This document shows, piece by piece, positions 4,282 to 25,078 of a DNA stretch of 54,707 nucleotides. Position 1 is the stretch's first letter; each line of letters starts with the position of its first letter. Made by a program: the position numbers and the translations under genes. The DNA is from a virus (lineage: Duplodnaviria; Caudoviricetes), in IMG/VR virus record IMGVR_UViG_3300025809_000025, positions 1 through 54,707 of that record; one strand, written 5' to 3'. Below the pieces are notes generated by a model that worked only from the letters and a program-made list of their open reading frames with translations, made no database searches and had not been told where the DNA came from.

Positions 4282-4946
4282 TAGCCATTACCCATCATTG
4301 CAGGTACTGGCGTGGTTGCGCTATCCGCTTGGGTCTTAACGCCTAAGGCATTAGCAAAGCTTTGATAGTGCATCATTGCCCTTTGAGCGTTACCGGCAAA
4401 CTCTGAGTCTTTCTGATATGAGCGATACAATACATAATCTAATATACAATTTGAATAAACGTCATCCAAACTGATTACGGTCGTGTCTGTATCGAAGTTC
4501 GATATAGAAATTTCTGCCGGTGCAGAACTATACACAACTTCTAGGCTGTGAGTTCCACTAGCACCCTTAGGGTAAACGTAAAAATTCTTTGGGTCGGCGG
4601 GATCGTACACATAGTGCTCAATCTTATTTGTTCCCGCAGCTGTTTCATGCCAGTTAGGTAAAGTCTCATCAAGGATTCTTCTCTCTACTTGAGTCACTGC
4701 TCTACCGCCAACATTCCTAACCACCTCAATTAAACGCAAAGCTTGCGTCGGAAGTGTTTGTTTACTGCCTGCTGCACACGCAAACGTAGTGTTAACCATT
4801 GTTGCGTCTGGACGATGCAATACAACTTCTTTCTGTGCATCGTTAAAGAACTTTAAAAGCTCTGAGTTTGGAAACCGGACATTCGTATTATCCTGAAGAA
4901 TAATTGCAGCCCGATCTAAAATGTCTATTACCTTAGTTGTCGCCAT
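4281..4946 (-). CDS. Putative head-tail adaptor protein (DUF6682-like)
   Basis: RAAIILQD...RFP..ELL..FNDAQKEVV..RPDA and DYVLYRSYQKDSEFAGN motifs; position after MCP. Confidence 0.6.
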   Translation of the reverse strand: MATTKVIDILDRAAIILQDNTNVRFPNSELLKFFNDAQKEVVLHRPDATMVNTTFACAAGSKQTLPTQALRLIEVVRNVGGRAVTQVERRILDETLPNWHETAAGTNKIEHYVYDPADPKNFYVYPKGASGTHSLEVVYSSAPAEISISNFDTDTTVISLDDVYSNCILDYVLYRSYQKDSEFAGNAQRAMMHYQSFANALGVKTQADSATTPVPAMMGNG

Positions 4947-5211
4947 TATCGGTCTCCCATTCGATTACTTGTAAATCGGGGTTGTTTTTAAAAATCGGGT
5001 TGTAGTCAAACTCGTTACCAGTGATAACATTTTTGACCCGCTTCGGGATAAGCTCTTCAGTCTTTTTTGGAGGGTTAGCTTTATCTTTAGCTAATCTCTG
5101 CACCTGATCTTCTAGCTGCTCAAGGGTTAGCCTTCTGTCTAAATTAACGTTGAAGTCTTCCTTAGCCTGAATGAATATCTCGTCTTTTTTTGTCTTTGAT
5201 TTCTTGGTCAT
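4933..5211 (-). CDS. Hypothetical protein
   Basis: 92-aa ORF in operon with the adaptor genes. Confidence 0.6.
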   Translation of the reverse strand: MTKKSKTKKDEIFIQAKEDFNVNLDRRLTLEQLEDQVQRLAKDKANPPKKTEELIPKRVKNVITGNEFDYNPIFKNNPDLQVIEWETDNGDN

Positions 5212-5223
5212 AAGTGTCTCGCT

Positions 5224-5248
5224 AAAAAGGGGGAGGAAAACCTCCCCC
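5224..5248 (-). terminator. Rho-independent terminator after the major capsid gene
   Basis: Minus strand GGGGGAGG-TTTT-CCTCCCCC followed by TTTTT. Confidence 0.85.
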
Positions 5249-5263
5249 GATCATTAGTCGATC

Positions 5264-6121
5264 TTAGGTCCACTTACCAACGCAAAGTGCGTCAGGAGTA
5301 ACAACCTTAGAACCGTACACCTTCAAACCACGTACCTGATCGCCAAAAGTGCTTTCCATGCGAACAGTTTCAGTGTTAGTGAACTGTGAAGCGAAGGACA
5401 ACGCTTTTGGGTGACCGGCTAGAACGTGGGTGTAACCCGCGTCGGCACCAGAAGCAGGGGCGTAAACCATGTTGCTTTGGAATACCTTGAAACGGTCAAC
5501 CATTCCAACCAATCCGTTACGGAGAGGAGAAGTAGCATCGCCAGTCAAGTACGCTTGACGCAACTCAGACTGCTTGAGCATAGAGATGAACTCAGGAGAA
5601 AGAACGATGAATCGACCTTCTTCTGGAATGTTCAACTCATCAAGAGTCTTAGAAAGAACCAAGATGTTTTCCAAAATGTTGGAAGACGTGATAGTCGTCT
5701 GTGCACCGATAGTAGTGGCACCAGTGACAGCGCTAGACAATACGTCAGTCTCAACTGCAATACGCATACCTTCAGAAGCATCAGTAGATGCAGCTTCTAG
5801 CATGTTAATGTCAGCTTGAGCAGCCAACACATCATCAACTTTAAAGCTGTAGTACTTAGCTTTATCAACAAGCATTTCTACTTTAGCAGTAGTCAGCTCT
5901 TGAGTTGTGATAGTGCCAGCGTAGTCATTAATAGTTACAGCCGGAACTGTACGAATAACAACTTTGTCGCCTTGACCAGAGATCTCACCTTCATAGTCGG
6001 TGTTTGAAATTTCGGGTAAAATTGATTTGCTGTAGAACTTAGCCTGAAGGAGTTTGGAAAACACCTCTGGGATAAAGTTTACTTCAGATGTAGCACCCGT
6101 TGAAAATTGTGAAAAAGACAT
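5264..6121 (-). CDS. Major capsid protein (P22 coat-like, HK97 fold)
   Basis: FIPEVFS...NTDYEGEI...GDKVVI...VPEEGR-like...FGDQVRGLKVYG motifs; follows the scaffold gene and precedes a terminator. Confidence 0.9.
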   Translation of the reverse strand: MSFSQFSTGATSEVNFIPEVFSKLLQAKFYSKSILPEISNTDYEGEISGQGDKVVIRTVPAVTINDYAGTITTQELTTAKVEMLVDKAKYYSFKVDDVLAAQADINMLEAASTDASEGMRIAVETDVLSSAVTGATTIGAQTTITSSNILENILVLSKTLDELNIPEEGRFIVLSPEFISMLKQSELRQAYLTGDATSPLRNGLVGMVDRFKVFQSNMVYAPASGADAGYTHVLAGHPKALSFASQFTNTETVRMESTFGDQVRGLKVYGSKVVTPDALCVGKWT

Positions 6122-6140
6122 TTTATTACCTCACAAGAGA

Positions 6141-7061
6141 TTAGCGGCGTATCGATCCACTTTCCATCGCTTTGAGAATTTCTGTTTGATGCTTTTCAAA
6201 CACTTGGTTTGGCATCCTCATAATCTCATCGACAGTCCAGTATTTCTTATCGCCTTTAATTTGTGACTTTCGAGCTTTGGGCATTTTAGGTTCTGCAACC
6301 GTCTTTGCTCGCTCAAGAGCCTGCTCTTGCAGCGTGGGAGCTGGTACGCCCATATCCGCCTTAAACTTCGAAAGAACAGTGTTTACATCATTAGACGAAC
6401 CTTCTTGAATCCAAGTCTTCGTCTGAGCGTCCGCATCTTCTAACCAGTTCAACCAATCAGCAGAGTCCACAATGGAATCTACGTCAGGGTGTACAGATCG
6501 AATCCGCTCGAAGTGCTCAGCATGTGCCTGCGCCTCTAACGCCTGATATTTACTTTGTTCCTGCTCAGCTAAAGCTTCCTTAGCCTTACCAACTTCATCT
6601 TGCGTCCGCTTAAGTTCATCAAGCAAAGGTCCAGCTAGATCAGGATAATCTTCCCGAATCTGTGCCAGCTTGCTGTCATCCCTAGAAACTTCTACAAGTT
6701 GACTCTTCAACTCCGTAACACTTTTGATCAGGTCGGCATTTTGCCGCTTCAAGTCAGCAGTTTCTTGAGTTGCTTTCGTCATTCTCGCCTGTGCGCCCTT
6801 CATTGCTTTCTCGGCTTTTTCTAAAGCCAACTTCAGTTCCGAGTCCTCGCTGCGTTCTGACTCTTCTTCTGTGTCCTCATCCGCTTGAATTTCAACCTTG
6901 TCCGTGGGATCGGGGGCTTCTACTTGCAACGCCTCGGGTTCTTCTGGGGTATCCTCTTGAGGTTGATCTGCCTCTAGGGTCTCAGTCTTACCTTTAGTCA
7001 TTTGTTCGAACAATTCTTTCGCTTCAGCTTCCAGTCGCGCTGGGTCATTTCTCTTTGACAT
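6141..7061 (-). CDS. Capsid scaffolding protein
   Basis: Acidic coiled-coil 306-aa protein between portal and MCP, ending in ...EILKAMESGSIRR. Confidence 0.75.
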   Translation of the reverse strand: MSKRNDPARLEAEAKELFEQMTKGKTETLEADQPQEDTPEEPEALQVEAPDPTDKVEIQADEDTEEESERSEDSELKLALEKAEKAMKGAQARMTKATQETADLKRQNADLIKSVTELKSQLVEVSRDDSKLAQIREDYPDLAGPLLDELKRTQDEVGKAKEALAEQEQSKYQALEAQAHAEHFERIRSVHPDVDSIVDSADWLNWLEDADAQTKTWIQEGSSNDVNTVLSKFKADMGVPAPTLQEQALERAKTVAEPKMPKARKSQIKGDKKYWTVDEIMRMPNQVFEKHQTEILKAMESGSIRR

Positions 7062-7097
7062 TATTAATTTCCTTCGAGTCCCACAATGGGATATTCG

Positions 7098-7382
7098 TTA
7101 GTCTATTGCGGATATCCTTTTAGGGGTCCGCGCTTTGTCTAGAACGGCTTTTGCCGCGTCTTCAAGTTCAAGCATAAAACGCAGCTCTAATAGCCTGCCT
7201 TGCTCGAACCTAAAATTCGTCTCGTCTGCTCTTTCTAATGCTGATTGGGCACTATCAAATCGGGCTTTAATTAAGTCCCGAAGGAGATCCCATTCCGGCA
7301 TTGCCTTGAGCCGCAGGATCGCCTGCGATTGCTGCCTGTTGCATTTGAGCTTGGAGTAATTGTTGTTGTTGCTGCTGTTCAA
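7098..7382 (-). CDS. Small hypothetical protein downstream of portal (start uncertain: 7382 or 7301)
   Basis: FRFEQGRLLELRFML motif typical of the small post-portal protein; overlaps the portal 3' end. Confidence 0.6.
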   Translation of the reverse strand: MNSSNNNNYSKLKCNRQQSQAILRLKAMPEWDLLRDLIKARFDSAQSALERADETNFRFEQGRLLELRFMLELEDAAKAVLDKARTPKRISAID

Positions 7383-9252
7383 GAGCTACTTGCTCCTCAG
7401 TCTTAATAATTTCGTCGGGGTCAATATCCATGCTTTGAGCAATGTCTCGAAGAAGCTGTGTGCGCTTAACAACGCCACTTTGATCTTCCCCAACAATTGA
7501 CAAGAACTGAAGTAAACGCTGACTCTGTATCTCTTTCTGAACGAGAGAGGTACTGCCGCGTGCAACAATTCGCAAGTCACCCTTTGACTTCTCGTTAGTT
7601 CCAAACTCCATATTGAAGTGAAACAAAGCCTCAATCATTGGCTCAATCAAGAAGTCATCAATATTTTTAATTGTGCTTTTAAGTGCAATGTTTGCTGCAC
7701 CCATAAGCATAGACATACCTGTTGCTGTTTTATTTAGACCTTGTGTCTGCTCACCATGTGTATAGCTAGGTAGGCTAGTAGTCTCATCAGCAAATCTTCG
7801 GAATATCTCCACAATCTGGTTCAGTCCATTAGCGTTCGCTACTGGCTGATACCATCTAACAGCAGGCATAGAACCGTCTCCACCCTCACGCAAGAATACT
7901 CGCCAAGGGTGGATGTCTGTCGGGTCTTCTCCTGCTGCAAGCAAGTCTGTATTCACCTCGACCATAGGACCAGAAGACAAAGCCATGTTGTCTAGCCAGA
8001 TTCTTGTTGCGGTATTCATAGTTCCCTGAGAATCACGCATCATACGAGGCACGCCTGTACCCCAGAACTGATGGGGGCTGCGCTCATACGGGAAAATATG
8101 GTATGGAATTTTGTAACCAGTAATCGGGTTTAGCATTACTTTTAATACTTTCCCGTCACATACCCACACACAAGCAGAGTAATCATCAGAAAGATCTGCA
8201 TCTTCCTCCAACTCTATGCCGTGCTCTTCTAGCTCGTAACCATCTACAGTGCCCCAATACTCCATAACAACGAAGCGATTGGACTCAGAGTTCTCATGTA
8301 TACCAGCAATTCTGCGTCGTGTAGTCTCGTGATCTTCCTCTGTATGATTACCGTTACGGTGAATCTTAAGAAGATACTTAACCATGTCGCCATCAAACTG
8401 GGGTAGGTCAGCCAGATCACGCATTTGGCGGCGTGTTAAAACGTGACGACGGAACAATCCATCGCAGTCATCTAGCGTTGTGCAATAAGGGTCGGGATAT
8501 AGATCGAAGATGCTGACGCTTTCTACATCAGGAGCAACAGTTTCAACAACGCTGAGCGCATAACCCTGCTCACCGCTCTCTGGATCAAGCATCTTAGAGT
8601 AAGACTGCTTCTTATCTATCCGCACAGTACCAGCTTTTACGGCACCTGAACCAAAGATACATGCTTCTAACATGCTTTCTTTGAGCTTCATTTCTGCGTT
8701 GGTCTCTACAAGCTGGTCTTCAATGTCTACAGTCATAGACTCGGCAGCTTTTTTAGCCACCTCTATTTCTAATTCTAAAAACTCTTCCTCTAGCTCTGCC
8801 ATCCTTGCGGCTACCAAGTCCTGATTCATCATCGGATCTTGACCGCTTGCCATCATGATCTGCTCCATAGCCATCTGGCGCATTTGCATCGCCTTAAGAG
8901 GATCGATCTGAGGGACTGGGGTAGGGTCTACAGAAAAGAAAACATCGCCGTGCTGAAACAACAGGTCTATTATTCGACTGTAAGCAGCCATCACTTTTGT
9001 TCGTGTTAGCCCGACGAATACTTTTGATCGCGAACCAGACGCAGCATCTAGGCGTGCAAGTACATCAGGCTCATAAATGCCCTGATATTGGCGTAAGTCT
9101 TTTAGCCACTCGTTTTCTGTTTCTTTACGAGCGTCTTTATACTCTTGAAAAGTTCCGGCAAGACGAGAACCCAGACTCTGCATACTTTGCGCTTGCAAAC
9201 CATCTGGCTCTTTCTCTAGTTCTTCTTCACCTTCATACTCAGCATCATGCAT
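7267..9252 (-). CDS. Portal protein
   Basis: 661 aa between terL and scaffold; SIFDLYPDP, FWGTGVPRMMRD, KTATGMSMLM motifs; Gln-rich tail. Confidence 0.9.
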   Translation of the reverse strand: MHDAEYEGEEELEKEPDGLQAQSMQSLGSRLAGTFQEYKDARKETENEWLKDLRQYQGIYEPDVLARLDAASGSRSKVFVGLTRTKVMAAYSRIIDLLFQHGDVFFSVDPTPVPQIDPLKAMQMRQMAMEQIMMASGQDPMMNQDLVAARMAELEEEFLELEIEVAKKAAESMTVDIEDQLVETNAEMKLKESMLEACIFGSGAVKAGTVRIDKKQSYSKMLDPESGEQGYALSVVETVAPDVESVSIFDLYPDPYCTTLDDCDGLFRRHVLTRRQMRDLADLPQFDGDMVKYLLKIHRNGNHTEEDHETTRRRIAGIHENSESNRFVVMEYWGTVDGYELEEHGIELEEDADLSDDYSACVWVCDGKVLKVMLNPITGYKIPYHIFPYERSPHQFWGTGVPRMMRDSQGTMNTATRIWLDNMALSSGPMVEVNTDLLAAGEDPTDIHPWRVFLREGGDGSMPAVRWYQPVANANGLNQIVEIFRRFADETTSLPSYTHGEQTQGLNKTATGMSMLMGAANIALKSTIKNIDDFLIEPMIEALFHFNMEFGTNEKSKGDLRIVARGSTSLVQKEIQSQRLLQFLSIVGEDQSGVVKRTQLLRDIAQSMDIDPDEIIKTEEQVALEQQQQQQLLQAQMQQAAIAGDPAAQGNAGMGSPSGLN

Positions 9253-9255
9253 AGA

Positions 9256-10836
9256 TTAATAACCCGTCACAGGATCTAACGATTTAAAACGTTTTTGTAT
9301 AGTCCGGTGCCGAGGTCTCGGCATAGAAGCAAGTCCATGCAGGGCAATAGCATAAGCCATCACCCTGTCATCATAACATCCATTTTGGGAATTGTAACTC
9401 CCTTTATCATCAATGATGTAAGTTCGCAACTCATTTAATAATTCTATATCTGCAACACCGCTCTCTCCCTGCCTAAGCAGCGCCGCTAAATTGTCAACGA
9501 TTAATGGTTTTGTTTTGCTTGTCGTTAGAAAGCCTCCGCGTTTTGTCAAGCGATCTCCGTAGGCACCATCGACAGAACTCTCTACAAATAAATTTGAATA
9601 ACCTAAATCTTGCATTTTACGAAGCGTACCAAGACCGTGGTTGTTACGCTCAACTATTACATATGCAGTGTTATAGCGTTTTCCCAACATTGCTACTAGG
9701 GCGCCATAATCAAATGGATCTATGTGTCCGTGCCAACAGGCTACTTGATTGCCTAACGAGTCAAGTACTTGGGCGCAACTATAATCGCCATAGGCGAGAC
9801 CTTCCGCAACATCCACGCCAATGACGTAAGCTTCCTCTCTGGAGGGGGAATACCATTCTTGATAGTTGCCGTGTTCACGCTCAATTAAACTACCGTCAAT
9901 AATGTCGCCTTTAAAGTCTGCGGTGTAACAATTATTTTCACATTGAGATATCGCGGACTCTTCTACGAAACAACGACCGGAGGTTAAAAATGCTTCGAGC
10001 GGGGTACTAGGGTATTCCTGACGGAATAAATCTGTCCCACCTAACTCATCTAGTTTGGCGCGTCTAAATGAAAGTTGCTCATCGTCCAATCCATACTTTT
10101 GAGCCAGATCATATTCTTCTGGTGTAGCAACAAAGTAGGGCGATACTTTTTTTCTATACTCTGGCATCCAGTACCAAGGAATAAAGCAAGTAATCCACTC
10201 GGATTCGCCTCGAAGCGACTTCATTACCTGATCGTAGAACCATCCACCGGCACCATTGGCAGTACTCTCTAGAATTACCTCAGTGTTCTTACCACCGACA
10301 GTCTGTAATAGACCTGCGACTATGTCTGATCCTTGTGGGTAGAACGCCACTTCAGAGCCGTGGACAAATCGATTTGTTTGTCCTCGTCCCGTTTGGGTTG
10401 ATCTTGCTGTTCCGACCCTGTATCGCGAATTGATGTCATCAAAAACCAACGTTGACGCCGACTGACTAGCGAGCGGCGGCTTAAATGCCGGATGCGGGAC
10501 ATTGTCATAAAAGTATCTCACCATGTTAAAAATTGCGTTAGTAGATTCGGCAAGATGCGACAGTACGAATGCGTTAGCATTGCGATTCTGCGTGACTTTC
10601 CAGAAGTTTCTGCCCTGTGTGTACGTCGATATTCCGGTTTGGCGAGCTTTCAGGACCAATGCGCGGATATTTCCCTGATCTTTTAGCTGCTTTTCAAGCA
10701 TGGCATGGACATGTAACTGTGCAGCATTTAGGACAAAAGGCTTGGATTCACCCTCTTTTGTCACGATTTTCAGCATATTCTTACTATATAAAGGGAAGTT
10801 ACCCTTCAATTTGCGAGCTACCTCTTCAATTTCCAT
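9256..10836 (-). CDS. terL: Terminase large subunit
   Basis: Walker A variant LKARQTGIST, Walker B VHGSEVAF, ESTANG coupling motif, nuclease motifs IGVDVAEG and DDRVMA. Confidence 0.95.
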   Translation of the reverse strand: MEIEEVARKLKGNFPLYSKNMLKIVTKEGESKPFVLNAAQLHVHAMLEKQLKDQGNIRALVLKARQTGISTYTQGRNFWKVTQNRNANAFVLSHLAESTNAIFNMVRYFYDNVPHPAFKPPLASQSASTLVFDDINSRYRVGTARSTQTGRGQTNRFVHGSEVAFYPQGSDIVAGLLQTVGGKNTEVILESTANGAGGWFYDQVMKSLRGESEWITCFIPWYWMPEYRKKVSPYFVATPEEYDLAQKYGLDDEQLSFRRAKLDELGGTDLFRQEYPSTPLEAFLTSGRCFVEESAISQCENNCYTADFKGDIIDGSLIEREHGNYQEWYSPSREEAYVIGVDVAEGLAYGDYSCAQVLDSLGNQVACWHGHIDPFDYGALVAMLGKRYNTAYVIVERNNHGLGTLRKMQDLGYSNLFVESSVDGAYGDRLTKRGGFLTTSKTKPLIVDNLAALLRQGESGVADIELLNELRTYIIDDKGSYNSQNGCYDDRVMAYAIALHGLASMPRPRHRTIQKRFKSLDPVTGY

Positions 10837-11278
10837 GATTATTTACCACCGCCTTACACCACCAGACAAAGTCATGGTCATCCATATCGTTTCTCATTAA
10901 ATTTATTCGGGCGCAAACAAACCTAATATTGCCTTCGACGTAACCTTTATCCGTATCAATACGGTCTGGGCTCGCACATAAATCAGAATAATCAGTACTT
11001 GTGTGCATAGGTATGTTAGAGATGGCGCAAATGCCCCTTTGCTGCTCGTATAAGCTCATTAAGTACTCAAGTGATACTAGGGTGCCCGCATAATTCTTTT
11101 GCTTGTGACGTTGTTTAATGCTCGTTAATCGGGCTCCAAGAAAAAGCTCTACCGTCGAGTTCTGTCTATCTCTATTCCTTGATGTCCGGCACTTGTTACA
11201 AGCTCCACGATTTGCAGAAAAGTTACCTATTGATTTGGTAATCCCGCATATGTTGCACTCTTTACTTTCAGCCGCCAC
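10826..11278 (-). CDS. Putative HNH-like endonuclease with N-terminal Zn finger
   Basis: CNIC...CNKC, then QRGICAIS...SPDRID...GYVEGNIRFVC...NLM pattern. Confidence 0.65.
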   Translation of the reverse strand: MAAESKECNICGITKSIGNFSANRGACNKCRTSRNRDRQNSTVELFLGARLTSIKQRHKQKNYAGTLVSLEYLMSLYEQQRGICAISNIPMHTSTDYSDLCASPDRIDTDKGYVEGNIRFVCARINLMRNDMDDHDFVWWCKAVVNNHGN

Positions 11279-11637
11279 TCCATATTCCTCGTAATCTCCT
11301 CAAACCTTGCTACAGCTTTACGGCTATTACTCACAGCGACTCGATCTCCCATCAACCCAGTCCCTAGCCCTATACACCCTTGAACGTCTTTAGAAAAGTT
11401 GGCTGCGTGAATCAGTATGTATGTTCTATCCGCAACATCTTTGATATGCCATGTCTCACCAAACCGTGGGGAGTCTCTCCAGCCCGTGTCGTATGTCCCC
11501 TCAGGAATACACGAGACGTTTGGAGCGTTATCTAACCAAGGGCGCTCTATCGTATAAAAGCGCTCTCCGTTTAAATCTATAACACCTAGAGTTCCCTCAG
11601 GGTGATATGCAAATCTTTTAAGCTCTACCTCAACCAT
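11227..11637 (-). CDS. DUF5675-family protein (candidate endolysin / L,D-transpeptidase-like)
   Basis: TLG...YTIERPW..N....SCIPEGTY...RTYILIHAAN...DVQGCIGLG motifs. Start moved to ATG 11637 because the longer ORF overlaps another gene. Confidence 0.75.
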   Translation of the reverse strand: MVEVELKRFAYHPEGTLGVIDLNGERFYTIERPWLDNAPNVSCIPEGTYDTGWRDSPRFGETWHIKDVADRTYILIHAANFSKDVQGCIGLGTGLMGDRVAVSNSRKAVARFEEITRNMEWRLKVKSATYAGLPNQ

Positions 11638-11797
11638 TATTATCGGAACCTCTTTTTCGAGCCCGAACATCGTTTCGCTCTTTTCGGTTGAGCTTAGAAT
11701 CTCCAAAGATTCGATCGAAGTTTTCATTAAACTTTTTAGTATCTTCAGGGCGGCGGTTGTCGCCCTTGCTATAAAGTGTTTCACGAGAGTTCTTCAT
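11630..11797 (-). CDS. Small basic hypothetical protein (55 aa)
   Basis: MKNSRETLYSKGDNRRPEDTKKFNENFDRIFG...; ATGA overlap with the upstream gene. Confidence 0.65.
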   Translation of the reverse strand: MKNSRETLYSKGDNRRPEDTKKFNENFDRIFGDSKLNRKERNDVRARKRGSDNNG

Positions 11798-11925
11798 TTC
11801 TTTTTTGCCGTCCTAGCCGCACGCTTAAAATCCTTATTAGTCGGAGCGCCTTTGTCACCCGCATTCCGCATTTTTTTTCCAGCTTTTTTCTTGGCGTTGA
11901 TGTTTGCGTATAGACCGTTGCCCAT
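11794..11925 (-). CDS. Small Lys-rich protein (43 aa)
   Basis: MGNGLYANINAKKKAGKKMRNAGDKGAPTNKDFKRAARTAKKK; tightly coupled to its neighbours. Confidence 0.7.
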   Translation of the reverse strand: MGNGLYANINAKKKAGKKMRNAGDKGAPTNKDFKRAARTAKKK

Positions 11926-11927
11926 AA

Positions 11928-12050
11928 TCAGCTACCTTTCTTAGCTTTTGGTTTAGCTTTCGGTTTAACTGCGGCTTTCTTCGCCGCGATTTTTGCTTTT
12001 GCTACACCAGCTTTCGTATATGCAAACTTCTTACCGTTGACCATTGGCAT
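11928..12050 (-). CDS. Small Lys/Ala-rich, histone H1-like protein (40 aa)
   Basis: MPMVNGKKFAYTKAGVAKAKIAAKKAAVKPKAKPKAKKGS; starts 2 nt after the upstream stop. Confidence 0.7.
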   Translation of the reverse strand: MPMVNGKKFAYTKAGVAKAKIAAKKAAVKPKAKPKAKKGS

Positions 12051-12052
12051 AA

Positions 12053-12364
12053 TTAGCTTCCTTTTTTCCACTTAGTTGATGATGACTTGGTTTTGGAGGG
12101 CGCCCATTTAGTTTTTGCTGCCCAATAAGCTGCACTCATCTTGCCCTTGCTTATGTTCTTAGCATGACGACTCTCAAATGCTTTTCTTTGACCAACCGTC
12201 TGATTTGTTTTTACACCCTGCTGTCCAAATCTGATGGTCTTGACCTTGTCACCCTCTTTGGCAACAACAACATGAGACTTAGTAGGGTGGGATGGAGTCC
12301 GCTTAGGCTTGTTATAACCACTGACCCCCGCACTTTTTAGTCTAGAATCCTTCTTATCTGCCAT
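12053..12364 (-). CDS. Conserved highly basic phage protein
   Basis: MADKKDSRLKSAGVSGYNKPKRTPSHPTKSHVVVAKEGDKVKTIRFGQQG...SAAYWA; recognisable marine-phage family. Confidence 0.75.
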   Translation of the reverse strand: MADKKDSRLKSAGVSGYNKPKRTPSHPTKSHVVVAKEGDKVKTIRFGQQGVKTNQTVGQRKAFESRHAKNISKGKMSAAYWAAKTKWAPSKTKSSSTKWKKGS

Positions 12365-12365
12365 A

Positions 12366-12524
12366 TCAAACCTTCCGATCAATGAATCTGCTGTGTTTTT
12401 GATAACCCTTGCACTTGTTACACCACACCAAAGCTCTATAAGGCTCTACTTTGTAGATGCAGGTGCAAATCGCTGCCCTACTTCTTTCTATTTTTTGTAT
12501 TTGTGTAACGGTGGGTACTCTCAT
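12366..12524 (-). CDS. Small Cys-containing hypothetical protein (52 aa)
   Basis: MRVPTVTQIQKIERSRAAICTCIYK...WCNKCKGYQ...; stop lies 1 nt before the next ATG. Confidence 0.45.
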   Translation of the reverse strand: MRVPTVTQIQKIERSRAAICTCIYKVEPYRALVWCNKCKGYQKHSRFIDRKV

Positions 12525-12769
12525 AAGGACCGCCCCCCCTAATCAACTAGGTGCAAATGCACTTCATCATCCGAAGAAATCTCTATCAGCGTGTAAACAG
12601 CATCCTCAACCTGATCAGCTAAGTAATAAAGGCTCCCACCAAAGCGCAAAGAGGTAACATGAGGGACAATAAACGCCTCAAACGTCAATTCATCCATATC
12701 TAAGTATTCAAGTGCCGTAACACGACGCATTAATAGCTTTCTCATTTTTTGCCTCGGTACTCTCATAAG
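12514..12769. repeat. 14-bp direct repeat GGTACTCTCATAAG
   Basis: Identical copies at 12514-12527 and 12756-12769, each next to a C or G homopolymer run. Confidence 0.8.
12539..12766 (-). CDS. Putative excisionase-like / winged-HTH DNA-binding protein
   Basis: LLMRRVTALEYLDMDELTFE...FGGSLYYLADQVE resembles MerR/Xis-type HTH. Confidence 0.45.
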   Translation of the reverse strand: MRVPRQKMRKLLMRRVTALEYLDMDELTFEAFIVPHVTSLRFGGSLYYLADQVEDAVYTLIEISSDDEVHLHLVD

Positions 12770-12943
12770 ACCCGTGGGGGGTCAAAATACGGTGGTGGGG
12801 GCTGGCATGTCCCCCATGGAACCACACTCTCGATCGTCGTCAGAAGCCAGAAACTACCCCTCCCCCTACCTTCTATTACGCATGACCCGTGACGCCACAC
12901 ACCACCTTTAACAGACCATTTGCCCTATGAGCAGTTGGTCGAT

Positions 12944-13402
12944 CTAGTGTAAGTCCTTGATATCGTTAGGGTCTTTAACCTCTAACTCAACCAAATCTTC
13001 CTCATCCAAGTCTAAGTCAGCCAGAAAGGAGCCATTAAACTGCACAACTTCCTGTTTCTCTGGGGCAATCCATCCCTCAGCCTTGAATAATTGCTCAATA
13101 GCCCTGAGGCGGTCAGAATCCTTCTCTGCTAGCGTTCCCAGTTGCTCCAATGCATTGATCCACTGATCCCTTCTCTGCTCTGTATCCTGTGCCATATCGT
13201 CTCTAATCGCCTCTATTGCCGCCTTTACACTAATATTTCCCAACAACCGGAATGCTTGGTGATTTGCGTGTGCATACCCTGCGTGCTCTGCCGCTCTGGT
13301 CGCATTGCCTGAAGTAACGTAGTAATCCACAAACTTTTGCTGTCTTAGGTTTAATGGCTTTACTGTTTCGGTTGGCTTTGTTGTATCTCTCTCTATGTTC
13401 AT
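12944..13402 (-). CDS. terS: Terminase small subunit
   Basis: LNLRQQKFVDYYVTSGNATRAAEHAGY...RLL..V: Terminase_2 N-terminal HTH. Confidence 0.9.
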   Translation of the reverse strand: MNIERDTTKPTETVKPLNLRQQKFVDYYVTSGNATRAAEHAGYAHANHQAFRLLGNISVKAAIEAIRDDMAQDTEQRRDQWINALEQLGTLAEKDSDRLRAIEQLFKAEGWIAPEKQEVVQFNGSFLADLDLDEEDLVELEVKDPNDIKDLH

Positions 13403-13459
13403 CTGTATGTTCCCCTATAGGAGAAGTCGGAATTGGGGGGGTTTAGGTTTTTCCCCGCG

Positions 13460-13732
13460 CTATAAAAATTTCGCGATCGCCGTGATACATGCCGCGAATA
13501 TGATCCATGCCGCTCGTTCTGCAACCATGCCCTTACCTGCTGACTTGGCAATGTCTTGCTCAACCTGCCGGATGTTGCCCTCCAACTGGTTAAGGCGCCC
13601 TTCGTGTCTGTCCAGTCGCTTGTGACTACTAACCAGTCGCTCATCTATGCGAGCCAATACAGCAACGGTATCGCTTAATTGATCAAGTTTTTGCTCGATC
13701 CTGTCGAATCTCTTCTCAATACTCAATTCCAT
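13460..13732 (-). CDS. Coiled-coil protein with C-terminal TM helix (holin/XhlA-like)
   Basis: RFDRIEQKLDQLSDTVAVLARIDERL... ending AAWIIFAACITAIAKFL. Confidence 0.6.
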   Translation of the reverse strand: MELSIEKRFDRIEQKLDQLSDTVAVLARIDERLVSSHKRLDRHEGRLNQLEGNIRQVEQDIAKSAGKGMVAERAAWIIFAACITAIAKFL

Positions 13733-13825
13733 ACCTTTTGCCGCTTTGAATGTAGGTTAATAATCTGAACGTGTTACCAATTGTAACATTTTAACTGCTT
13801 GAGTAAATTATTTTATGCTGAAGTA

Positions 13826-13854
13826 TTGACAAGCGATTCTCTAGAGATTACGGT
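13826..13854 (+). promoter_or_regulatory. Early sigma70-type promoter
   Basis: TTGACA-17 nt-TACGGT with an AT-rich upstream tract, at the strand-switch point. Confidence 0.65.
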
Positions 13855-13957
13855 GCGAACCATGAAGTGTTGATTAGACACTGATTCCGACCCAGAGGTC
13901 ATGGGGGCGCTCGGAGAATCCAAGGATGGTTTCAATGAGTGAAGCGGCAAGACCCAC

Positions 13958-14013
13958 TAAGTGTCTGCATCTACCTGATGCACTGATGAGGGCAAGCAAG
14001 CCCGAAACACTTA
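13958..14013 (+). ncRNA. Hammerhead ribozyme, type III
   Basis: UAAGUG-UC^-UGCAUC[UACCU]GAUGCA-CUGAUGA-GGGC[AAGCAA]GCCC-GAAA-CACUUA: full catalytic core and three perfect stems; GUC cleavage after 13965. Confidence 0.95.
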
Positions 14014-14031
14014 CTGCCGAGGAGGCACAGC

Positions 14032-14208
14032 ATGACCATTCAAGTATTGATTAAAAACAATTACGGAACCCAAGCCGTCTACCCTACCTGCACTGTCGGT
14101 GAAACCTTTGCACAGATCGCAGGAACCAAGACTTTGACCGATGAGACCAGAGCGCTAATGAAGAGACTGGGCTATCAATTTGAAGCCAAGATGGAGGTGT
14201 CGCTGTGA
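14032..14208 (+). CDS. Early hypothetical protein (58 aa)
   Basis: MTIQVLIKNNYGTQAVYPTCTVGETFAQIAGTKTLT...LGY; GAGGAGG RBS. Confidence 0.75.
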   Translation: MTIQVLIKNNYGTQAVYPTCTVGETFAQIAGTKTLTDETRALMKRLGYQFEAKMEVSL

Positions 14209-14309
14209 AACTATTTAAAGCGTTTATCGAGACTAACCTAGCAATCTATCTAGTTGGCGCTTGGGTGACGGTTACCGTCATCTATATCGCCTTTAGCAAC
14301 CTAGCCTGA
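14205..14309 (+). CDS. Small membrane protein (34 aa)
   Basis: GTG start overlapping the upstream TGA, GGAGG RBS; MKLFKAFIETNLAIYLVGAWVTVTVIYIAFSNLA. Confidence 0.55.
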   Translation: MKLFKAFIETNLAIYLVGAWVTVTVIYIAFSNLA

Positions 14310-14320
14310 GGAGGCTCACC

Positions 14321-14587
14321 ATGTCCCAAACATCAAGAAAGATCACCTACTTTCAACACAGCAACGGTGTTGATTTCGCTTACGAGGCAAACAACCCTGC
14401 TGATAGTTGGCTACCAGTCGTCAACTATCCGCACAGAGTCTGGGTCAGTTGCAACCCAATTAATGACTCAGGTTGGCGATATGCCAACGTTAAAAAGACT
14501 GTCGCCTATATCGTTGTCGATGAGGACGACCACGGTCAGCCAGTGATCGAGAAGTGGTCAATTAAGAATCACCGTAACTTCCATTGA
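14321..14587 (+). CDS. Early hypothetical protein
   Basis: 88 aa, strong RBS; RYANVKKTVAYIVVDEDD.G.P..EKW.I motif. Confidence 0.75.
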   Translation: MSQTSRKITYFQHSNGVDFAYEANNPADSWLPVVNYPHRVWVSCNPINDSGWRYANVKKTVAYIVVDEDDHGQPVIEKWSIKNHRNFH

Positions 14588-14660
14588 GTAAGCACTGAGA
14601 GCGCCTTCGCTGAGGGCGTTCAACTGTATTTATTCAACTCAGCCTGAGGAGGCAACCATT

Positions 14661-15530
14661 ATGAAAAAATATGACGAACTATTTGAGAAAGTAACCAACC
14701 GAATTATCCAGAACCTAGAGAGCGCTGATCGATGGCAGAAGCCGTGGGCTTCAATCGCTGACGGATCAGTACCCCATAACGCCAGTACAGGCAGACCCTA
14801 TTCTGGGATCAACTTCTTTAACCTTGGGTTTGAGTCTGAAAAGTGGGGGAACACTGGATGGCTAACCTACAAACAAGCTACCGCTCTGGGTGGCACTGTA
14901 CCCAAGAACAGCGCAGAGAATGGCGGCTGTGAGTATGTCTGGTTTATGGCTAAGTCGATCTATAAAGATAAGCAGACTGGCGATGACAAGATGGGATTTA
15001 TCAACAAGTGCTTCCCAGTATGGAATGTTGCCCAGATCGAAGGGCTAGAGGGTGGCAAGCAATACACCCCACCATCAGCGGGTACAGGTGCAGTCAACAG
15101 ACTGGCTGATAGCCTCAACATCAATCTTCAATATGGTGGTGATAAAGCTTGTTTCATCCCATCCATTGACACCATCAAGATGCCATCAGTTGATGCCTTT
15201 ACGACTGAGGCAAATCATGACGCAACCCTGCTTCATGAGATGGTCCATTGGACTGGTCACTCTGACCGACTAAAGCGCCAGATCAATAACAGCTTTGCAT
15301 CTGAAGGCTATGCCTTTGAAGAGTTAGTTGCTGAGTTAGGTGCGGCAATGGGTGGTGCTCTGTTAGGTATCCCCTACGAGGGACTGCAACACGAGTCCTA
15401 TATTAAGTCATGGCTTAAGTCTCTTAAGGATGACCCCAGACATATCGTTAAGGCGGCTAAGCAAGCGTCTAAGGCTGTTCAGTATCTAGATGAGAACGGT
15501 AGTACTGACCTATTGGAGCAGGCGGCATAA
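14661..15530 (+). CDS. ardC: ArdC-family antirestriction protein (ssDNA-binding domain + zincin metallopeptidase)
   Basis: W.KPW...P.N..TGRPYSGIN...WLTYKQA...WNVAQ N-domain; HEMVHWTGH..RLKR...YAFEELVAELG...HESYIKSWL. Confidence 0.9.
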   Translation: MKKYDELFEKVTNRIIQNLESADRWQKPWASIADGSVPHNASTGRPYSGINFFNLGFESEKWGNTGWLTYKQATALGGTVPKNSAENGGCEYVWFMAKSIYKDKQTGDDKMGFINKCFPVWNVAQIEGLEGGKQYTPPSAGTGAVNRLADSLNINLQYGGDKACFIPSIDTIKMPSVDAFTTEANHDATLLHEMVHWTGHSDRLKRQINNSFASEGYAFEELVAELGAAMGGALLGIPYEGLQHESYIKSWLKSLKDDPRHIVKAAKQASKAVQYLDENGSTDLLEQAA

Positions 15531-15564
15531 GGGTGAAAGATTTATTTTCCCCGACTCAAAAAAT

Positions 15565-15622
15565 TCTAGCTGATGAGCAACTGGATGGTGACCAGTCGAA
15601 ACGCCCAGTGGGGCGTCCTAGA
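15565..15622 (+). ncRNA. Hammerhead ribozyme, type I
   Basis: UCUAG-CUGAUGA-G(CA)ACUGG[AUGGUGA]CCAGUC-GAAA-CGCCC[AGUG]GGGCG-UC^-CUAGA: full core; GUC cleavage after 15617. Confidence 0.93.
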
Positions 15623-15650
15623 TAACCAACAATCCTGAGGAGGATTAAAT

Positions 15651-15956
15651 ATGCAAAAAGCACACTTGCACCTCATTAAATGGGGCTTAGAAAAAGGATA
15701 CACAATTGAGGTTGATATTGAAGGTCATCATGAGTATCGCGGTACTAGCTACAAGGAAGCAAAGGAAGCCAGTGAAGCCGGAGATATGGGCTGTATATAT
15801 CTTATCACTGGTCAAGCCGAAACAGACTACTCCTACTTTGGCTATATGCACGAGTGGAAGCAAAATCCTGATGAAATAATCTATGACTACGGTCTTGATG
15901 CTGTCTCTGAAGAATGGGCGCGTGATTACGATAAGCATTGCGAGGTTGCGGAATGA
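15651..15956 (+). CDS. Early hypothetical protein
   Basis: 101-aa acidic ORF with GAGGAGG RBS. Confidence 0.75.
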   Translation: MQKAHLHLIKWGLEKGYTIEVDIEGHHEYRGTSYKEAKEASEAGDMGCIYLITGQAETDYSYFGYMHEWKQNPDEIIYDYGLDAVSEEWARDYDKHCEVAE

Positions 15957-16222
15957 AGTCTACCACCAAGCGAATTGATGAAGCTAAAAGTCGTATCGAA
16001 CAAGCTAGCGATGAGATTGATCGAGCCAAAGAGGCAATAATATTGTTCGTCCTCGTAAATCGAAACCGAAAACGAGTTGCTGAATTGTCAGGCGTACACC
16101 TAAACACAGTGTCTGATTTTGTCAGCGGTCGGAGAGGCGGCATACGTCTAGACACCTTGATCAAGATCGAAAAAGCTTGCCACGTCATCAAAGAGAGTCC
16201 GTTTTTTATGCCGAAGAGTTAG
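15953..16222 (+). CDS. XRE/Cro-type HTH protein
   Basis: KRVAELSGVHLNTVSDFVSGR....RLDTLIKIEKA; ATGA overlap start at 15953. Confidence 0.75.
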   Translation: MKSTTKRIDEAKSRIEQASDEIDRAKEAIILFVLVNRNRKRVAELSGVHLNTVSDFVSGRRGGIRLDTLIKIEKACHVIKESPFFMPKS

Positions 16223-16307
16223 TCGGAGTAAACAGCAGGGAGCTACCTGAATGGTAGTTTCTTAGTGTTAATTCCAACACTACAACTAATCCTGAGGAGG
16301 ATTAATC

Positions 16308-17321: not shown

Positions 17322-17418
17322 ACCCCGAAATTGCGCTAAGGATGGCGCTCTTTTTCGTTAGTTTTTCAGGTGCAACCCGAGGGTTGTATCTAATGAACTA
17401 ATCAAAGAGGAAAGCAAC

Positions 17419-23399: not shown

Positions 23400-24053
23400 A
23401 TGGATATGCTTACCCGAGCCCAAATCTGGGCGACACTGTCTAATATAGATGTAACAGAATTTTGTACCGAAACAGAGATACTCGACAATAAAACGTTGAC
23501 CTATCTGCCTTGGATGAAAGCCCATGAAATCATGATGGGCGAGTTTCCTGAATACTCTTGGGAGTTCACCGAAGACCCTTCTTCTCGTGAATGTCACTAT
23601 TTTGATGATGGTTCTGCCGAAGTTAGGTGCCGAATGACTATCGGTGGGCAGACCAACATCACCTACTTACCTGTCCACTCCTCTGGCAAAGCAGTCAGTT
23701 CACCCTCAGCAACCGATATCAACCAAGCTAAACAGCGGTGTCGTGTTAAGGCAATGGGTGAGTTTGGTCTGGGCTACCGGATGTGGATTAGCTCTCAAAT
23801 TAAAGATATTGAGTCTAAAAGTGCTTCTCAAGATGTACAAAGTACACCTCCAGAAACAGATGATGCAGATGCAGAACTTCAAAAGGTTATTGCGATCTGG
23901 GATCACCTGAAGTTTGGTGACGCCAAGACCCTGAGTGAAGCCACAAAGCTGTACGACAAGTTTAAACGTGGTCTAACTAATAGAGGCTTAACAGATACCA
24001 CTGGTAACTGGGAAAAGCTCTGTAAGGAGAATGGTTGGAGGGCTAAGAAATGA
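23400..24053 (+). CDS. Sak/Rad52-like single-strand annealing protein (DUF1071)
   Basis: W.TLS.IDV...LTYLPW..A...LPV...DIN.A.QRC.VKA...FGLG. Confidence 0.85.
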   Translation: MDMLTRAQIWATLSNIDVTEFCTETEILDNKTLTYLPWMKAHEIMMGEFPEYSWEFTEDPSSRECHYFDDGSAEVRCRMTIGGQTNITYLPVHSSGKAVSSPSATDINQAKQRCRVKAMGEFGLGYRMWISSQIKDIESKSASQDVQSTPPETDDADAELQKVIAIWDHLKFGDAKTLSEATKLYDKFKRGLTNRGLTDTTGNWEKLCKENGWRAKK

Positions 24054-25078
24054 GTTTAGCTGTCCAAGGATCACCCGAATGGCACGCGGCAAGAGCTGGA
24101 AAGATCAAAGCATCTGTCTGCGCCGCGCTAGAGGGTAAGCACCCATACATGAAACCTGCTGACTTAGTTCGCCAAGAAGTACGAGCGCTGGCAGGGGCTG
24201 AATCAGAATTCAAGATGGTTCCGGCAGTTGCTCACGGGCAAATGATGGAAGACCATGCAAGGATCTTTCTTGAGAACTTGCAGGACTACACTGTCGAAGA
24301 GACTGGTCTAGTTGTACATCCTAAGTATGACTTTATTGCAGCATCTCCAGACGGACTTGTCGGACTTGACGGTTGCGTTGAGATTAAGTGTCCGTTCCCC
24401 CAATACACTAAGACCCCTTACTCTATCTTTGCTCCCAAGAGAAGCATGTACCTAATGCAGGTCTATATGCAGATGGAAGTGCTTGATGCAGAGTGGTGTG
24501 ATTTTATTTGCTACCTCGCAAAAAATGAAACGGCGGAACCCCAGTACACGTTGGAGAGAGTTCACCGCAAGGAAGACTTTCTAACTGAACTGTTAAGCCG
24601 CAAGTACCTGCCTCAGCCTGAGAAGGGAACTATCTCTCGCCTTGATCTATATAGATGTTGGCACAACTGGATTCAAGAACAGTATAGAGACGAAGTAACC
24701 CGAGCTGAACACGTAAAAACAATTGAGGTCAACGCTCCTGAGGTCATTAAGACCGATGAGGAACTGAACCGACTAACTGCAATGCAGAACAGGATTGCAG
24801 ACATTAAGTCACGAATCAGTGACGACTTAGAAACCTTGGACGTACTGGGAAAGACCAGTGACTCCCTGAAAAAAGATATCGCCGAACGTTACAAGAGTTC
24901 TGTCAGCAATGGCAAGACTACTGTGAAGGTGATTATGAAGAACCCACCAATAGACTATAGAAAAGCGTTCGAGTTCTTGGGTGGTGAAGATGAAGTATTA
25001 AATAAAGACGAGTCCCTAGATTCTTTTCGAAGATCGACGGGAGCAATGCAGGTACAAATTCAACACGGAGAAGTGTAA
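24050..25078 (+). CDS. YqaJ / lambda-exonuclease family protein
   Basis: QGSPEWHAARAG.I.AS...HG...E..AR...ASPDGLV....VEIKCP...Y.MQV..QM. Confidence 0.9.
   Translation: MSLAVQGSPEWHAARAGKIKASVCAALEGKHPYMKPADLVRQEVRALAGAESEFKMVPAVAHGQMMEDHARIFLENLQDYTVEETGLVVHPKYDFIAASPDGLVGLDGCVEIKCPFPQYTKTPYSIFAPKRSMYLMQVYMQMEVLDAEWCDFICYLAKNETAEPQYTLERVHRKEDFLTELLSRKYLPQPEKGTISRLDLYRCWHNWIQEQYRDEVTRAEHVKTIEVNAPEVIKTDEELNRLTAMQNRIADIKSRISDDLETLDVLGKTSDSLKKDIAERYKSSVSNGKTTVKVIMKNPPIDYRKAFEFLGGEDEVLNKDESLDSFRRSTGAMQVQIQHGEV

What the first reader, a model, noticed from the sequence alone, without database searches (positions are those of the whole stretch)
13958..15622. Two hammerhead ribozymes bracket the ArdC early cassette and could excise a circularisable 1.65-kb RNA
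Seen: a type III hammerhead (13958-14013) about 100 nt after the early promoter and a type I hammerhead (15565-15622) just after ardC. Both are on the coding strand, with intact CUGAUGA/GAAA/GUC cores and perfect stems. Known: hammerheads leave 5'-OH and 2',3'-cyclic phosphate ends, which RtcB ligases join. Inference: double cleavage releases a 1652-nt RNA (13966-15617) carrying three small ORFs plus ardC. It would be a 5'-OH, RNase E-resistant mRNA, or possibly a circular mRNA that stabilises antirestriction expression.
Basis: partly seen in the sequence, partly recalled or inferred. Interest (0 to 1): 0.9.

Follow-up and report, generated by a model that had tools for sequence, protein, structure and literature searches.

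The report
Two hammerhead ribozymes flanking phage ardC
Two genuine self-cutting hammerhead RNAs bracket an anti-restriction gene block in an uncultured marine phage, an arrangement known in phages since 2011, and nothing supports the proposed circular RNA.

Summary
The type III one is at 13958-14013 and cuts after C13965. The type I one is at 15565-15622 and cuts after C15617. Neither reaches Rfam's curated score. HH-A still scores E about 1e-9 against RF00008. HH-B scores 73.3 bits (E 3.7e-19) against a model built only from relatives.

Fifteen of 21 related viral contigs carry 1-6 type I hammerheads of this kind. All are on the ardC strand, all in gaps between ORFs, and they show strong compensatory change. 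Seven contigs also have the leader type III hammerhead.

The most likely function is self-processing of the ardC-block transcript into RNAs with defined ends. Perreault et al. (2011, PMC3088659) described this layout, including hammerheads flanking the anti-restriction gene ardA. They looked for circular products and found none. This scan has noted hammerhead arrays in phage operons on other DNA many times.

The circular-RNA idea has no support. The two ribozymes cannot re-form a hammerhead across the junction, the ends are not complementary, the phage encodes no RtcB, and the block between the ribozymes is not conserved. This is a new member of a known kind. Cleavage itself is untested.

The parts
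13826..13854 (+). Promoter-like site: -35 TTGACA (13826-13831), 17-nt spacer, weak -10 TACGGT (13849-13854). Inferred only.
   Evidence: Sequence. Conserved in the window and L001-L004 of 7 aligned sequences. Not reported by the promoter scan.
13861..13957 (+). Conserved structured leader that HH-A cleavage would detach (about 105 nt up to C13965). The 5' end is inferred.
   Evidence: Alignment. RNAalifold gives 19 pairs, 4 of them with compensatory change, in 6 sequences. No Rfam family.
13958..14013 (+). HH-A, type III hammerhead. Cleavage between C13965 and U13966.
   Evidence: Covariation in 6 distinct sequences: 93.1% of cells paired against 21-40% when slid, and 4 pairs with change on both sides.
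14032..14587 (+). Three small ORFs: 14032-14208 (58 aa), 14205-14309 (34 aa), 14321-14587 (88 aa, phrog_23785).
   Evidence: Homologues of the 58-aa and 88-aa ORFs in relatives; no tblastn hit for the 34-aa ORF.
14585..14636 (+). Long intergenic hairpin before ardC. It contains the terminator-like stem 14599-14621.
   Evidence: 10 pairs, 6 G-C, tail AACTGTATTT. (-28.3 kcal/mol, z -3.29).
14661..15530 (+). ardC (289 aa): ArdC N-terminal domain plus zincin-like metallopeptidase.
   Evidence: PF08401 1.5e-20; PF18818 3.5e-40. (phrog_7245 5.8e-60).
15531..15552 (+). Weak hairpin after the ardC stop, followed by an A-rich linker. Relatives have a much stronger G+C hairpin here.
   Evidence: -6.4 kcal/mol. 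(relatives' flanks). RAGATH-1 model alignment.
15565..15628 (+). HH-B, type I hammerhead (15565-15622), cleavage between C15617 and C15618. Loop II 15586-15589 pairs with 15625-15628 as a pseudoknot.
   Evidence: Pseudoknot helix: 87.5% of cells paired and 4 of 5 pairs with compensatory change in 32 sequences.
15651..15956 (+). First ORF after HH-B (101 aa, no family). Its start is 33 nt after the cut site.
   Evidence: Its homologues in L007-L010 also directly follow a type I hammerhead.

Best explanation
These are two active cis-cleaving hammerhead ribozymes that punctuate the ardC-block transcript of a temperate marine phage.

HH-A (type III) sits about 105 nt after a likely promoter. It cuts near its own 5' end, so it removes the triphosphate-bearing leader. 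The message then starts with a 5'-OH and the folded ribozyme body, 18 nt ahead of the first start codon.

HH-B (type I, stabilised by a loop II pseudoknot) cuts near its own 3' end. The ardC-containing RNA therefore ends in the folded ribozyme with a 2',3'-cyclic phosphate. The next cistron starts with a short 33-nt leader carrying its ribosome-binding site.

The net effect is host-independent processing of one long transcript into units with fixed, structured ends. This would set stability and translation independently of promoter context and neighbouring genes.

Shown here: the motifs, their covariation, their placement between ORFs on one strand, and their clustering. Inferred: cleavage itself, the end chemistry, and the effect on stability or translation.
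For: Identity.
- HH-A scores E 1.1e-9 against RF00008.
- HH-B scores 73.3 bits, E 3.7e-19, against a model built without the window.

Covariation of type I.
- In 28 sequences, 14 of 17 pairs have compensatory change and 96.2% of cells pair, against 31-41% when slid.
- Stems I and III were selection criteria of my script. Stem II was not: 5 of 6 pairs compensatory, 91% paired.
- The pseudoknot was not a criterion either: 4 of 5 pairs compensatory, 87.5% paired.

Covariation of type III: 4 pairs compensatory and 93.1% paired in 6 distinct sequences.

Distribution.
- Model R1 gave 53 hits at E <= 1, all on the ardC strand, in 15 of 21 ArdC loci.
- In whole records, every hit lies in one 1-4.5-kb block. 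Examples: 5 hits within 37272-40440 of a 53.7-kb record, and 7 within 43077-47552 of a 49.5-kb record.
- All hammerheads lie between or at the edges of ORFs called by my simple script (requiring a Shine-Dalgarno-like motif before the start). Type I hammerheads mostly end about 24-28 nt before the next start.

Precedent. Perreault et al. 2011 showed that clustered prophage hammerheads cleave in vitro. The ardA-flanking triple also cleaved in vivo in E. coli. They proposed processing into single-gene or operon-length mRNAs (passages read). A 2019 review repeats this proposal (passages read).
Against: - No cleavage was measured here.
- All three Rfam hammerhead matches fall below the curated gathering scores.
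- The window has only two hammerheads. Its other gaps in this block hold long plain stems instead, so hammerheads are not required at every gap.
- One close relative, L016, has no hammerhead in the 3 kb after ardC.
- A terminator-like hairpin at 14599-14621 may end many transcripts before ardC.
- The benefit of ribozyme processing has not been demonstrated for any phage (review passage).
Confidence: 0.65

Rival explanations
1. Circular mRNA. After double cleavage, a host RtcB-type ligase joins C15617>p to 5'-OH U13966. This makes a 1652-nt exonuclease-proof circle that sustains ArdC synthesis.
For: Hammerhead products carry the right end chemistry for RtcB (established knowledge). Hammerhead-flanked RNAs circularise in viroids and retrozymes; for PMC7229834 only the search listing and abstract start were seen.
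Against: - The excised 5' end (UGCAU) cannot pair with the HH-B stem I strand (UCUAG).
- The excised 3' end fits the HH-A stem III strand poorly, so no hammerhead re-forms at the junction.
- Duplex energy between the two ends is -27.9 kcal/mol against a shuffle mean of -31.3. In 390 of 500 shuffles the energy was at least as good.
- The phage has no RtcB or RNA ligase gene. The host is unknown.
- The block between the ribozymes varies from 1 to 7 ORFs among relatives.
- Perreault et al. 2011 sought circular products and detected none.
Confidence: 0.04
2. Module-boundary elements. The hammerheads and the repeated ribosome-binding-site boxes persist mainly as conserved linkers. Homologous recombination at these linkers shuffles small genes among related phages, and cleavage is secondary.
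For: - Gene content and order between conserved hammerheads differ among close relatives. L001 (ArdC 99% identical) lacks the three small ORFs. The 58-aa ORF lies after ardC in L003 and L004.
- Metagenome DNA contigs break or diverge at 13887-13950, 14455-14548 and 14579-14655.
Against: - Compensatory changes in all stems and in the pseudoknot, together with a near-invariant catalytic core, show selection on the RNA fold. Selection is not just on DNA identity.
- The window/L001 difference appears to map to the repeated ribosome-binding-site box, not to a ribozyme.
Confidence: 0.12
3. Leader release. The main job of HH-A is to detach the conserved structured leader of about 105 nt. That would free a small RNA, or uncouple the mRNA from a regulator that binds the leader.
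For: - The leader is conserved with a multi-hairpin fold: 19 pairs, 4 compensatory, in 6 sequences.
- It matches no Rfam family.
- A GGA-containing hairpin loop lies at 13921-13928. Its resemblance to a CsrA site is recalled knowledge and comes from no call.
Against: - The GGA loop is absent in L002, L005 and L014.
- The supposed phage CsrA-like protein at 25464-25865 matches no Pfam family at E <= 0.001.
- Relatives L007-L012 have no type III leader hammerhead.
Confidence: 0.1
4. Inactive or conditionally active relics. One or both motifs no longer cleave at cellular Mg2+, or cleave only under particular conditions.
For: - Scores are below the Rfam gathering scores.
- HH-B has a 2-nt bulge in stem II.
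- In the window's minimum-energy fold, the leader hairpin arms compete with HH-A stem III.
Against: - All core positions are intact.
- The stem II bulge is shared by many relatives.
- The pseudoknot that supports fast cleavage is kept.
- The competing fold is not significant (z -1.19) and is not conserved in L003-L005.
Confidence: 0.07

Closest known systems
Clustered cis hammerheads flanking genes in phages and prophages (Perreault et al. 2011, PMC3088659; passages read)
   Same: - Several hammerheads of mixed types on one strand, in intergenic gaps, flank single genes or short gene blocks.
- An anti-restriction gene is among the flanked genes.
- Pseudoknot-stabilised hammerheads occur in both.
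- The U3-A8 core covariation is also seen here, in L002:3039 and L005:3904.
- Processing into shorter mRNAs was proposed there too.
   Different: - The flanked gene is ardC, not ardA.
- A type III hammerhead sits in the first leader, right after the likely promoter.
- The carrier is an uncultured marine temperate phage clade.
- Rfam's curated thresholds detect only 1 of the 37 hammerheads in 8 relatives.
Rfam Hammerhead_3 (RF00008), Hammerhead_1 (RF00163) and RAGATH-1-hammerhead (RF03152)
   Same: Full core, three stems and a GUC cut site. HH-B has an upstream hairpin and an A-rich linker, as in the RAGATH-1 model.
   Different: All three scores are below gathering: 42.8 against 48.5, 20.8 against 34, and 27.1 against 56.3. 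The upstream hairpin is weak in the window.
RNase III processing of the phage T7 early transcript (recalled knowledge, not read here)
   Same: A long phage transcript beginning with an anti-restriction gene is cut at intergenic structures into discrete mRNAs with structured ends.
   Different: T7 relies on a host enzyme. Here the RNA would cut itself. The window's other gaps do hold long plain stems.
RiboJ-type synthetic 5'-UTR ribozyme insulators (recalled; only search listings seen)
   Same: A hammerhead in the 5' leader removes promoter-derived sequence. It leaves a 5'-OH, structured start just ahead of the ribosome-binding site.
   Different: RiboJ is engineered. HH-A is natural and conserved in 7 related contigs.
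Hammerhead-bounded circular RNAs of viroids, satellites and retrozymes (for PMC7229834 only the search listing and abstract start were seen)
   Same: Two hammerhead cuts release an RNA with 5'-OH and 2',3'-cyclic phosphate ends.
   Different: Those use like hammerheads in tandem, so the joined ends rebuild a hammerhead. Here the two are of unlike type with unrelated arms, and no junction evidence exists.

Membership tests
Hammerhead ribozyme, type III (RF00008): HH-A | Conserved core CUGANGA ... GAAA, with the A15.1-U16.1 pair | tested here: met
   Read and aligned to the model. Core invariant in 7 sequences.
Hammerhead ribozyme, type III (RF00008): HH-A | Three helices around the core, stems I and II closed by loops, stem III open | tested here: met
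   Stems of 6, 4 and 7 bp. 93.1% of cells paired and 4 pairs with change on both sides.
Hammerhead ribozyme, type III (RF00008): HH-A | N-U-H cleavage triplet | tested here: met
   GUC at 13963-13965.
Hammerhead ribozyme, type III (RF00008): HH-A | Rfam gathering score | tested here: not met
   42.8 bits against 48.5. E is still 9.6e-9 and 1.1e-9.
Hammerhead ribozyme, type I (RF00163): HH-B | Core, three helices with stem I open, GUC triplet | tested here: met
   Independent clade model gives 73.3 bits. 14 of 17 pairs compensatory.
Hammerhead ribozyme, type I (RF00163): HH-B | Rfam gathering score | tested here: not met
   20.8 bits against 34.
Hammerhead ribozyme, type I (RF00163): HH-B | Tertiary contact that aligns stems I and II (here a pseudoknot between loop II and the 3' flank) | tested here: met
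   15586-15589 pairs with 15625-15628. Helix 87.5% paired, 4 of 5 pairs compensatory in 32 sequences.
Hammerhead ribozymes (both) | Mg2+-dependent self-cleavage giving 5'-OH and 2',3'-cyclic phosphate ends | not testable with these tools
   The RNA runs available were contigs only and show no ends.
RAGATH-1 hammerhead (RF03152) | Upstream hairpin plus A/U-rich linker joined to a type I hammerhead, at the gathering score | tested here: inconclusive
   The architecture aligns end to end (model positions 1-77), but scores only 27.1 bits against 56.3. The hairpin is weak in the window and strong in relatives.
Clustered gene-flanking phage hammerheads (Perreault et al. 2011) | Two or more hammerheads on one strand, in intergenic gaps, flanking genes of a phage | tested here: met
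   Phage nature from terminase, primase/helicase and integrase.
Hammerhead-derived circular RNA (viroid or retrozyme type) | The joined ends rebuild a hammerhead, or are held together by pairing | tested here: not met
   Arms are unrelated. The duplex is no better than shuffles, with 390 of 500 at least as good.
Hammerhead-derived circular RNA (viroid or retrozyme type) | Head-to-tail junction present in RNA | not testable with these tools
   Only a few low-depth RNA contigs cover the region and none shows a joint. Contigs cannot exclude one.

The most novel reading that the evidence does not exclude
Hammerhead-bounded phage messages are circularised in the host, by RtcB or by hammerhead self-ligation, to give exonuclease-proof circular mRNAs for anti-restriction and other small genes.

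The window's own pair is poorly suited to this. In relatives L010-L012, however, neighbouring type I hammerheads share the same stem I and the same pseudoknot partner. A segment excised between two of them could dock its 5' end into its own 3' ribozyme and rebuild a nicked hammerhead.
Probability: 0.04. Interest if true: 0.8.

Novelty: new member of a known kind. Interest (0 to 1): 0.3.

Why it matters
It adds a clean natural example to a long-known but functionally unsolved arrangement. Here one leader ribozyme and one intergenic ribozyme would give the anti-restriction message two ribozyme-capped ends.

The relatives form a compact comparative series with 1 to 6 type I hammerheads per locus, and a seventh, weak hit in one whole record, in one block of up to 4.5 kb. 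They could be used to test whether self-processing changes mRNA stability or translation.

It also shows that Rfam's curated thresholds miss almost this whole clade: 1 of 37 detected in 8 loci. Routine annotation therefore under-counts phage ribozymes. It does not open a new kind of system.

Tried and rejected
- Whole-window Rfam gathering scan: 0 matches. This was a filter and threshold effect, not absence.
- blastn of 13700-15800 against cultured phage records: no match. TerL is at best 35.6% identical to a cultured phage, so no named relative or host was found.
- ArdC in bacterial genomes: only relatives of 36% identity or less. Neither Rfam at gathering nor model R2 found a hammerhead there. 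No host or prophage was identified, so whether the host has RtcB could not be assessed.
- Sequencing runs. Two RNA runs held 0.06 of the sampled words. When laid, they gave only a few short low-depth contigs, for example 14063-14213 and 14447-14621. No joints appeared, and contigs cannot show ends. This says nothing for or against cleavage, expression level or circles.
- More hammerheads in the window: none found with R1 or R2 with filters off. The three other core-pattern matches (8149, 22276 and 38622, all minus strand) do not fold as hammerheads.
- Split or trans hammerhead with remote substrate sites, a lead from earlier scan notes. The HH-B substrate-like motif occurs 16 times at up to 3 mismatches, against 12.2 expected. 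No copy lies in the ardC block except HH-B itself. Rejected.
- The idea that HH-B travels with its downstream gene. HH-B is about equally similar (0.79-0.81) to the post-ardC hammerheads of relatives and to the one before the 101-aa ORF homologue in L007. No conclusion.
- CsrA link for the leader. The ORF at 25464-25865 has no Pfam family at E <= 0.001. Not pursued.
- Literature. 'hammerhead' + 'ArdC' gave 3 papers, none with a title or abstract about phages (listing only). 'self-cleaving ribozyme' + 'phage' + 'anti-restriction' gave only Perreault 2011.
- Supplements are closed. Perreault's Dataset S1 (all hammerhead alignments) may already contain these marine sequences, and I could not check.
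- The RAGATH paper (Weinberg et al. 2017), RiboJ (Lou et al. 2012), T7 RNase III processing and the resistance of 5'-OH RNA to RNase E are recalled, not read.
Full report
**What the window is.** The window is a whole viral record of 54,707 nt, rated 100% complete.
- A minus-strand block (1639-13732) holds the small and large terminase subunits.
- Further on are a primase/helicase, a Sak/YqaJ recombination pair and an integrase. The phage is therefore probably temperate.
- The best cultured relative of its large terminase is only 35.6% identical.
- DNA runs labelled marine metagenome from several studies hold the region.
- The finding lies at the start of a plus-strand block of small genes (14032 to about 17885). 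This block diverges from the terminase block.

**The observation.** HH-A (13958-14013) reads as a textbook type III hammerhead:
- a 7-bp stem III;
- GUC with the cut after C13965;
- a 6-bp stem I hairpin;
- the CUGAUGA core;
- a 4-bp stem II hairpin;
- GAAA.

Rfam Hammerhead_3 aligns over its full length at 42.8 bits. That is under the gathering score of 48.5, but E is 9.6e-9 and 1.1e-9, with 0 of 14 control genomes giving a hit. The whole-window gathering scan and a 2-kb E-value scan both missed it.

HH-B (15565-15622) is a type I hammerhead that cuts after C15617. Its stem II is a G-C pair, a CA bulge and then 5 bp, so 'perfect stems' is slightly generous. Rfam gives only 20.8 bits for Hammerhead_1 and 27.1 bits for the RAGATH-1 hammerhead. 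A covariance model built from 31 relatives without the window scores it at 73.3 bits, E 3.7e-19. Nothing else in the window scores above 13.6 bits.

The window therefore holds exactly two hammerheads of these types. The excised length of 1652 nt is correct.

**Relatives.** I searched with ArdC (confirmed by Pfam and PHROGs) in viral contigs and obtained 21 loci.
- A model of the type I hammerhead found 53 copies, all on the ardC strand, in 15 of the 21 loci (L001-L014, L018).
- It found none in L016, a close relative with 3 kb of sequence after ardC. It found none in the five loci with ArdC identity of 43% or less.
- Seven loci (L001-L006, L014) also carry the type III hammerhead, at the head of the block.
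- In five whole records, every type I hit lies in one block of 1-4.5 kb.
- Using ORFs called by my own simple script, every hammerhead lies between ORFs or overlaps a stop by a few bases. Type I hammerheads mostly end about 24-28 nt before the next start.

**Covariation.**
- For type I, 14 of 17 pairs show change on both sides. 96.2% of cells pair, against 31-41% when the partner is slid.
- My script selected sequences on stems I and III, so pairing there is partly by construction.
- Stem II was not selected on. Five of its 6 pairs are compensatory.
- A pseudoknot between loop II and the bases just 3' of stem I was not selected on either. It is 87.5% paired with 4 of 5 pairs compensatory, in three covarying sequence classes. 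In the window it is 15586-15589 with 15625-15628.
- The type III set is small, with 6 distinct sequences. It shows 4 compensatory pairs and 93.1% pairing, against 21-40% when slid.
- Two relatives carry the U3-A8 core covariation that Perreault et al. describe.

These are selected RNA folds, not chance motifs.

**What is not conserved.** The content between the flanking hammerheads varies:
- ardC alone in L001 and L004;
- four ORFs in the window;
- six or seven ORFs in L002 and L005.

The 58-aa ORF lies after ardC in L003 and L004. The pair is therefore one instance of general punctuation and not a dedicated ArdC capsule.

In the window, the other gaps of the block hold long plain stems instead of ribozymes (z -3.3, -5.3 and -4.5). 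One of these, just before ardC, looks like a terminator.

**Mechanism.**
- A type III hammerhead cuts near its 5' end. HH-A would shed a conserved, structured leader of about 105 nt (no Rfam family). The message would then begin with a 5'-OH and the folded ribozyme, 18 nt before the first start codon.
- A type I hammerhead cuts near its 3' end. HH-B would stay on the ardC RNA as a structured end with a 2',3'-cyclic phosphate. The next cistron would receive a 33-nt leader with its ribosome-binding site.
- The end chemistry follows from hammerhead chemistry.
- The consequences are inference, supported by the proposals in Perreault et al. 2011 and a 2019 review. These consequences are resistance to 5'-end-dependent decay, 3' protection and insulation from context.
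- From recalled knowledge, T7 early mRNA processing by host RNase III and the synthetic RiboJ insulator are the nearest functional analogues.

**Circularisation.** I found nothing in its favour.
- The excised 5' end cannot pair with the free stem I strand of HH-B.
- The excised 3' end fits the free stem III strand of HH-A poorly.
- Pairing between the two ends is no better than in shuffles, with 390 of 500 at least as good.
- The phage encodes no RtcB or RNA ligase. The host is unknown.
- The available RNA data were contigs without joints and cannot decide the question.
- Perreault et al. state that they looked for spliced or circular products of clustered phage hammerheads and detected neither.

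One point stays open. In L010-L012, adjacent type I hammerheads share stem I and the pseudoknot partner. Segments between them could rebuild a nicked hammerhead. That is the only place where self-ligation is structurally plausible.

**Comparison and novelty.** The arrangement was published in 2011, including hammerheads flanking the anti-restriction gene ardA, with in vitro and in vivo cleavage. This scan's notebook lists 371 notes on hammerheads in phage operons on other DNA.

Searches for 'hammerhead' with 'ArdC', and for self-cleaving ribozymes with anti-restriction, found no paper on ardC specifically. The supplementary alignments of the 2011 paper could not be opened.

What is new here is modest:
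- ardC is the flanked gene;
- a type III hammerhead sits in the first leader;
- a marine phage clade carries 1-6 type I pseudoknotted hammerheads per locus;
- Rfam's curated thresholds detect only 1 of the 37 hammerheads in eight loci (33 type I, 4 type III).

**Verdict.** This is a new member of a known kind, and interest is low to moderate.

Noticed in passing
window 13861-13957: The leader upstream of HH-A is conserved among 6 relatives and folds into several hairpins (19 pairs, 4 compensatory). It matches no Rfam family. HH-A cleavage would release it as a separate RNA of about 105 nt.
   Followed up: partly
window 13865-13882 and 13958-14012: In the window and L001, the arms of the first leader hairpin repeat the arms of HH-A stem III. 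The minimum-energy fold therefore swaps partners. This is not significant (z -1.19) and is not conserved in L003-L005.
   Followed up: partly
window 13921-13928: A CAAGGAUG motif sits with its GGA in a 4-nt hairpin loop, which resembles a CsrA site (recalled consensus). It is absent in L002, L005 and L014.
   Followed up: partly
window 14585-14636, 16220-16283, 17333-17410: The other gaps of the plus-strand small-gene block form long stable stems (z -3.3, -5.3, -4.5). Relatives have hammerheads in many gaps of the equivalent block. These stems could be RNase III-type sites, stabilisers or terminators.
   Followed up: partly
L002:3039-3097 and L005:3904-3960: These hammerheads have the core changed at C3 and G8 together to U3 and A8, a known natural covariation. 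L013:1374-1429 has U3 with G8. L005:6344-6403 has C at position 4.
   Followed up: no
L007:5218-5273 (also in L008, L009, L010): A conserved type I variant has a GUA cut site and a U-U mismatch at the pair next to the core in stem II. It may be slow or inactive, yet it is kept in four loci.
   Followed up: no
L002:4074-4192 and L004:2651-2769: A type I hammerhead with an insertion of about 60 nt in stem III (119 nt in all).
   Followed up: no
L002, L003, L004, L005, L007, L010, L011, L012: The Rfam gathering scan detects only 1 of the 37 hammerheads that the clade model and my script find in these eight loci (L012:5376-5435, 36.7 bits).
   Followed up: yes
L010:3922-4312, and similar positions in L011 and L012: Neighbouring type I hammerheads share the same stem I and pseudoknot partner. 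The RNA excised between them could rebuild a nicked hammerhead across its own ends.
   Followed up: no
window 13887-13950, 14455-14548, 14579-14655: Metagenome DNA contigs end or diverge at these places, which suggests population-level mosaic boundaries around the small ORFs.
   Followed up: no
window 23400-27185: Sak single-strand annealing protein, YqaJ-like exonuclease and a tyrosine integrase are present, so the phage is probably temperate.
   Followed up: partly
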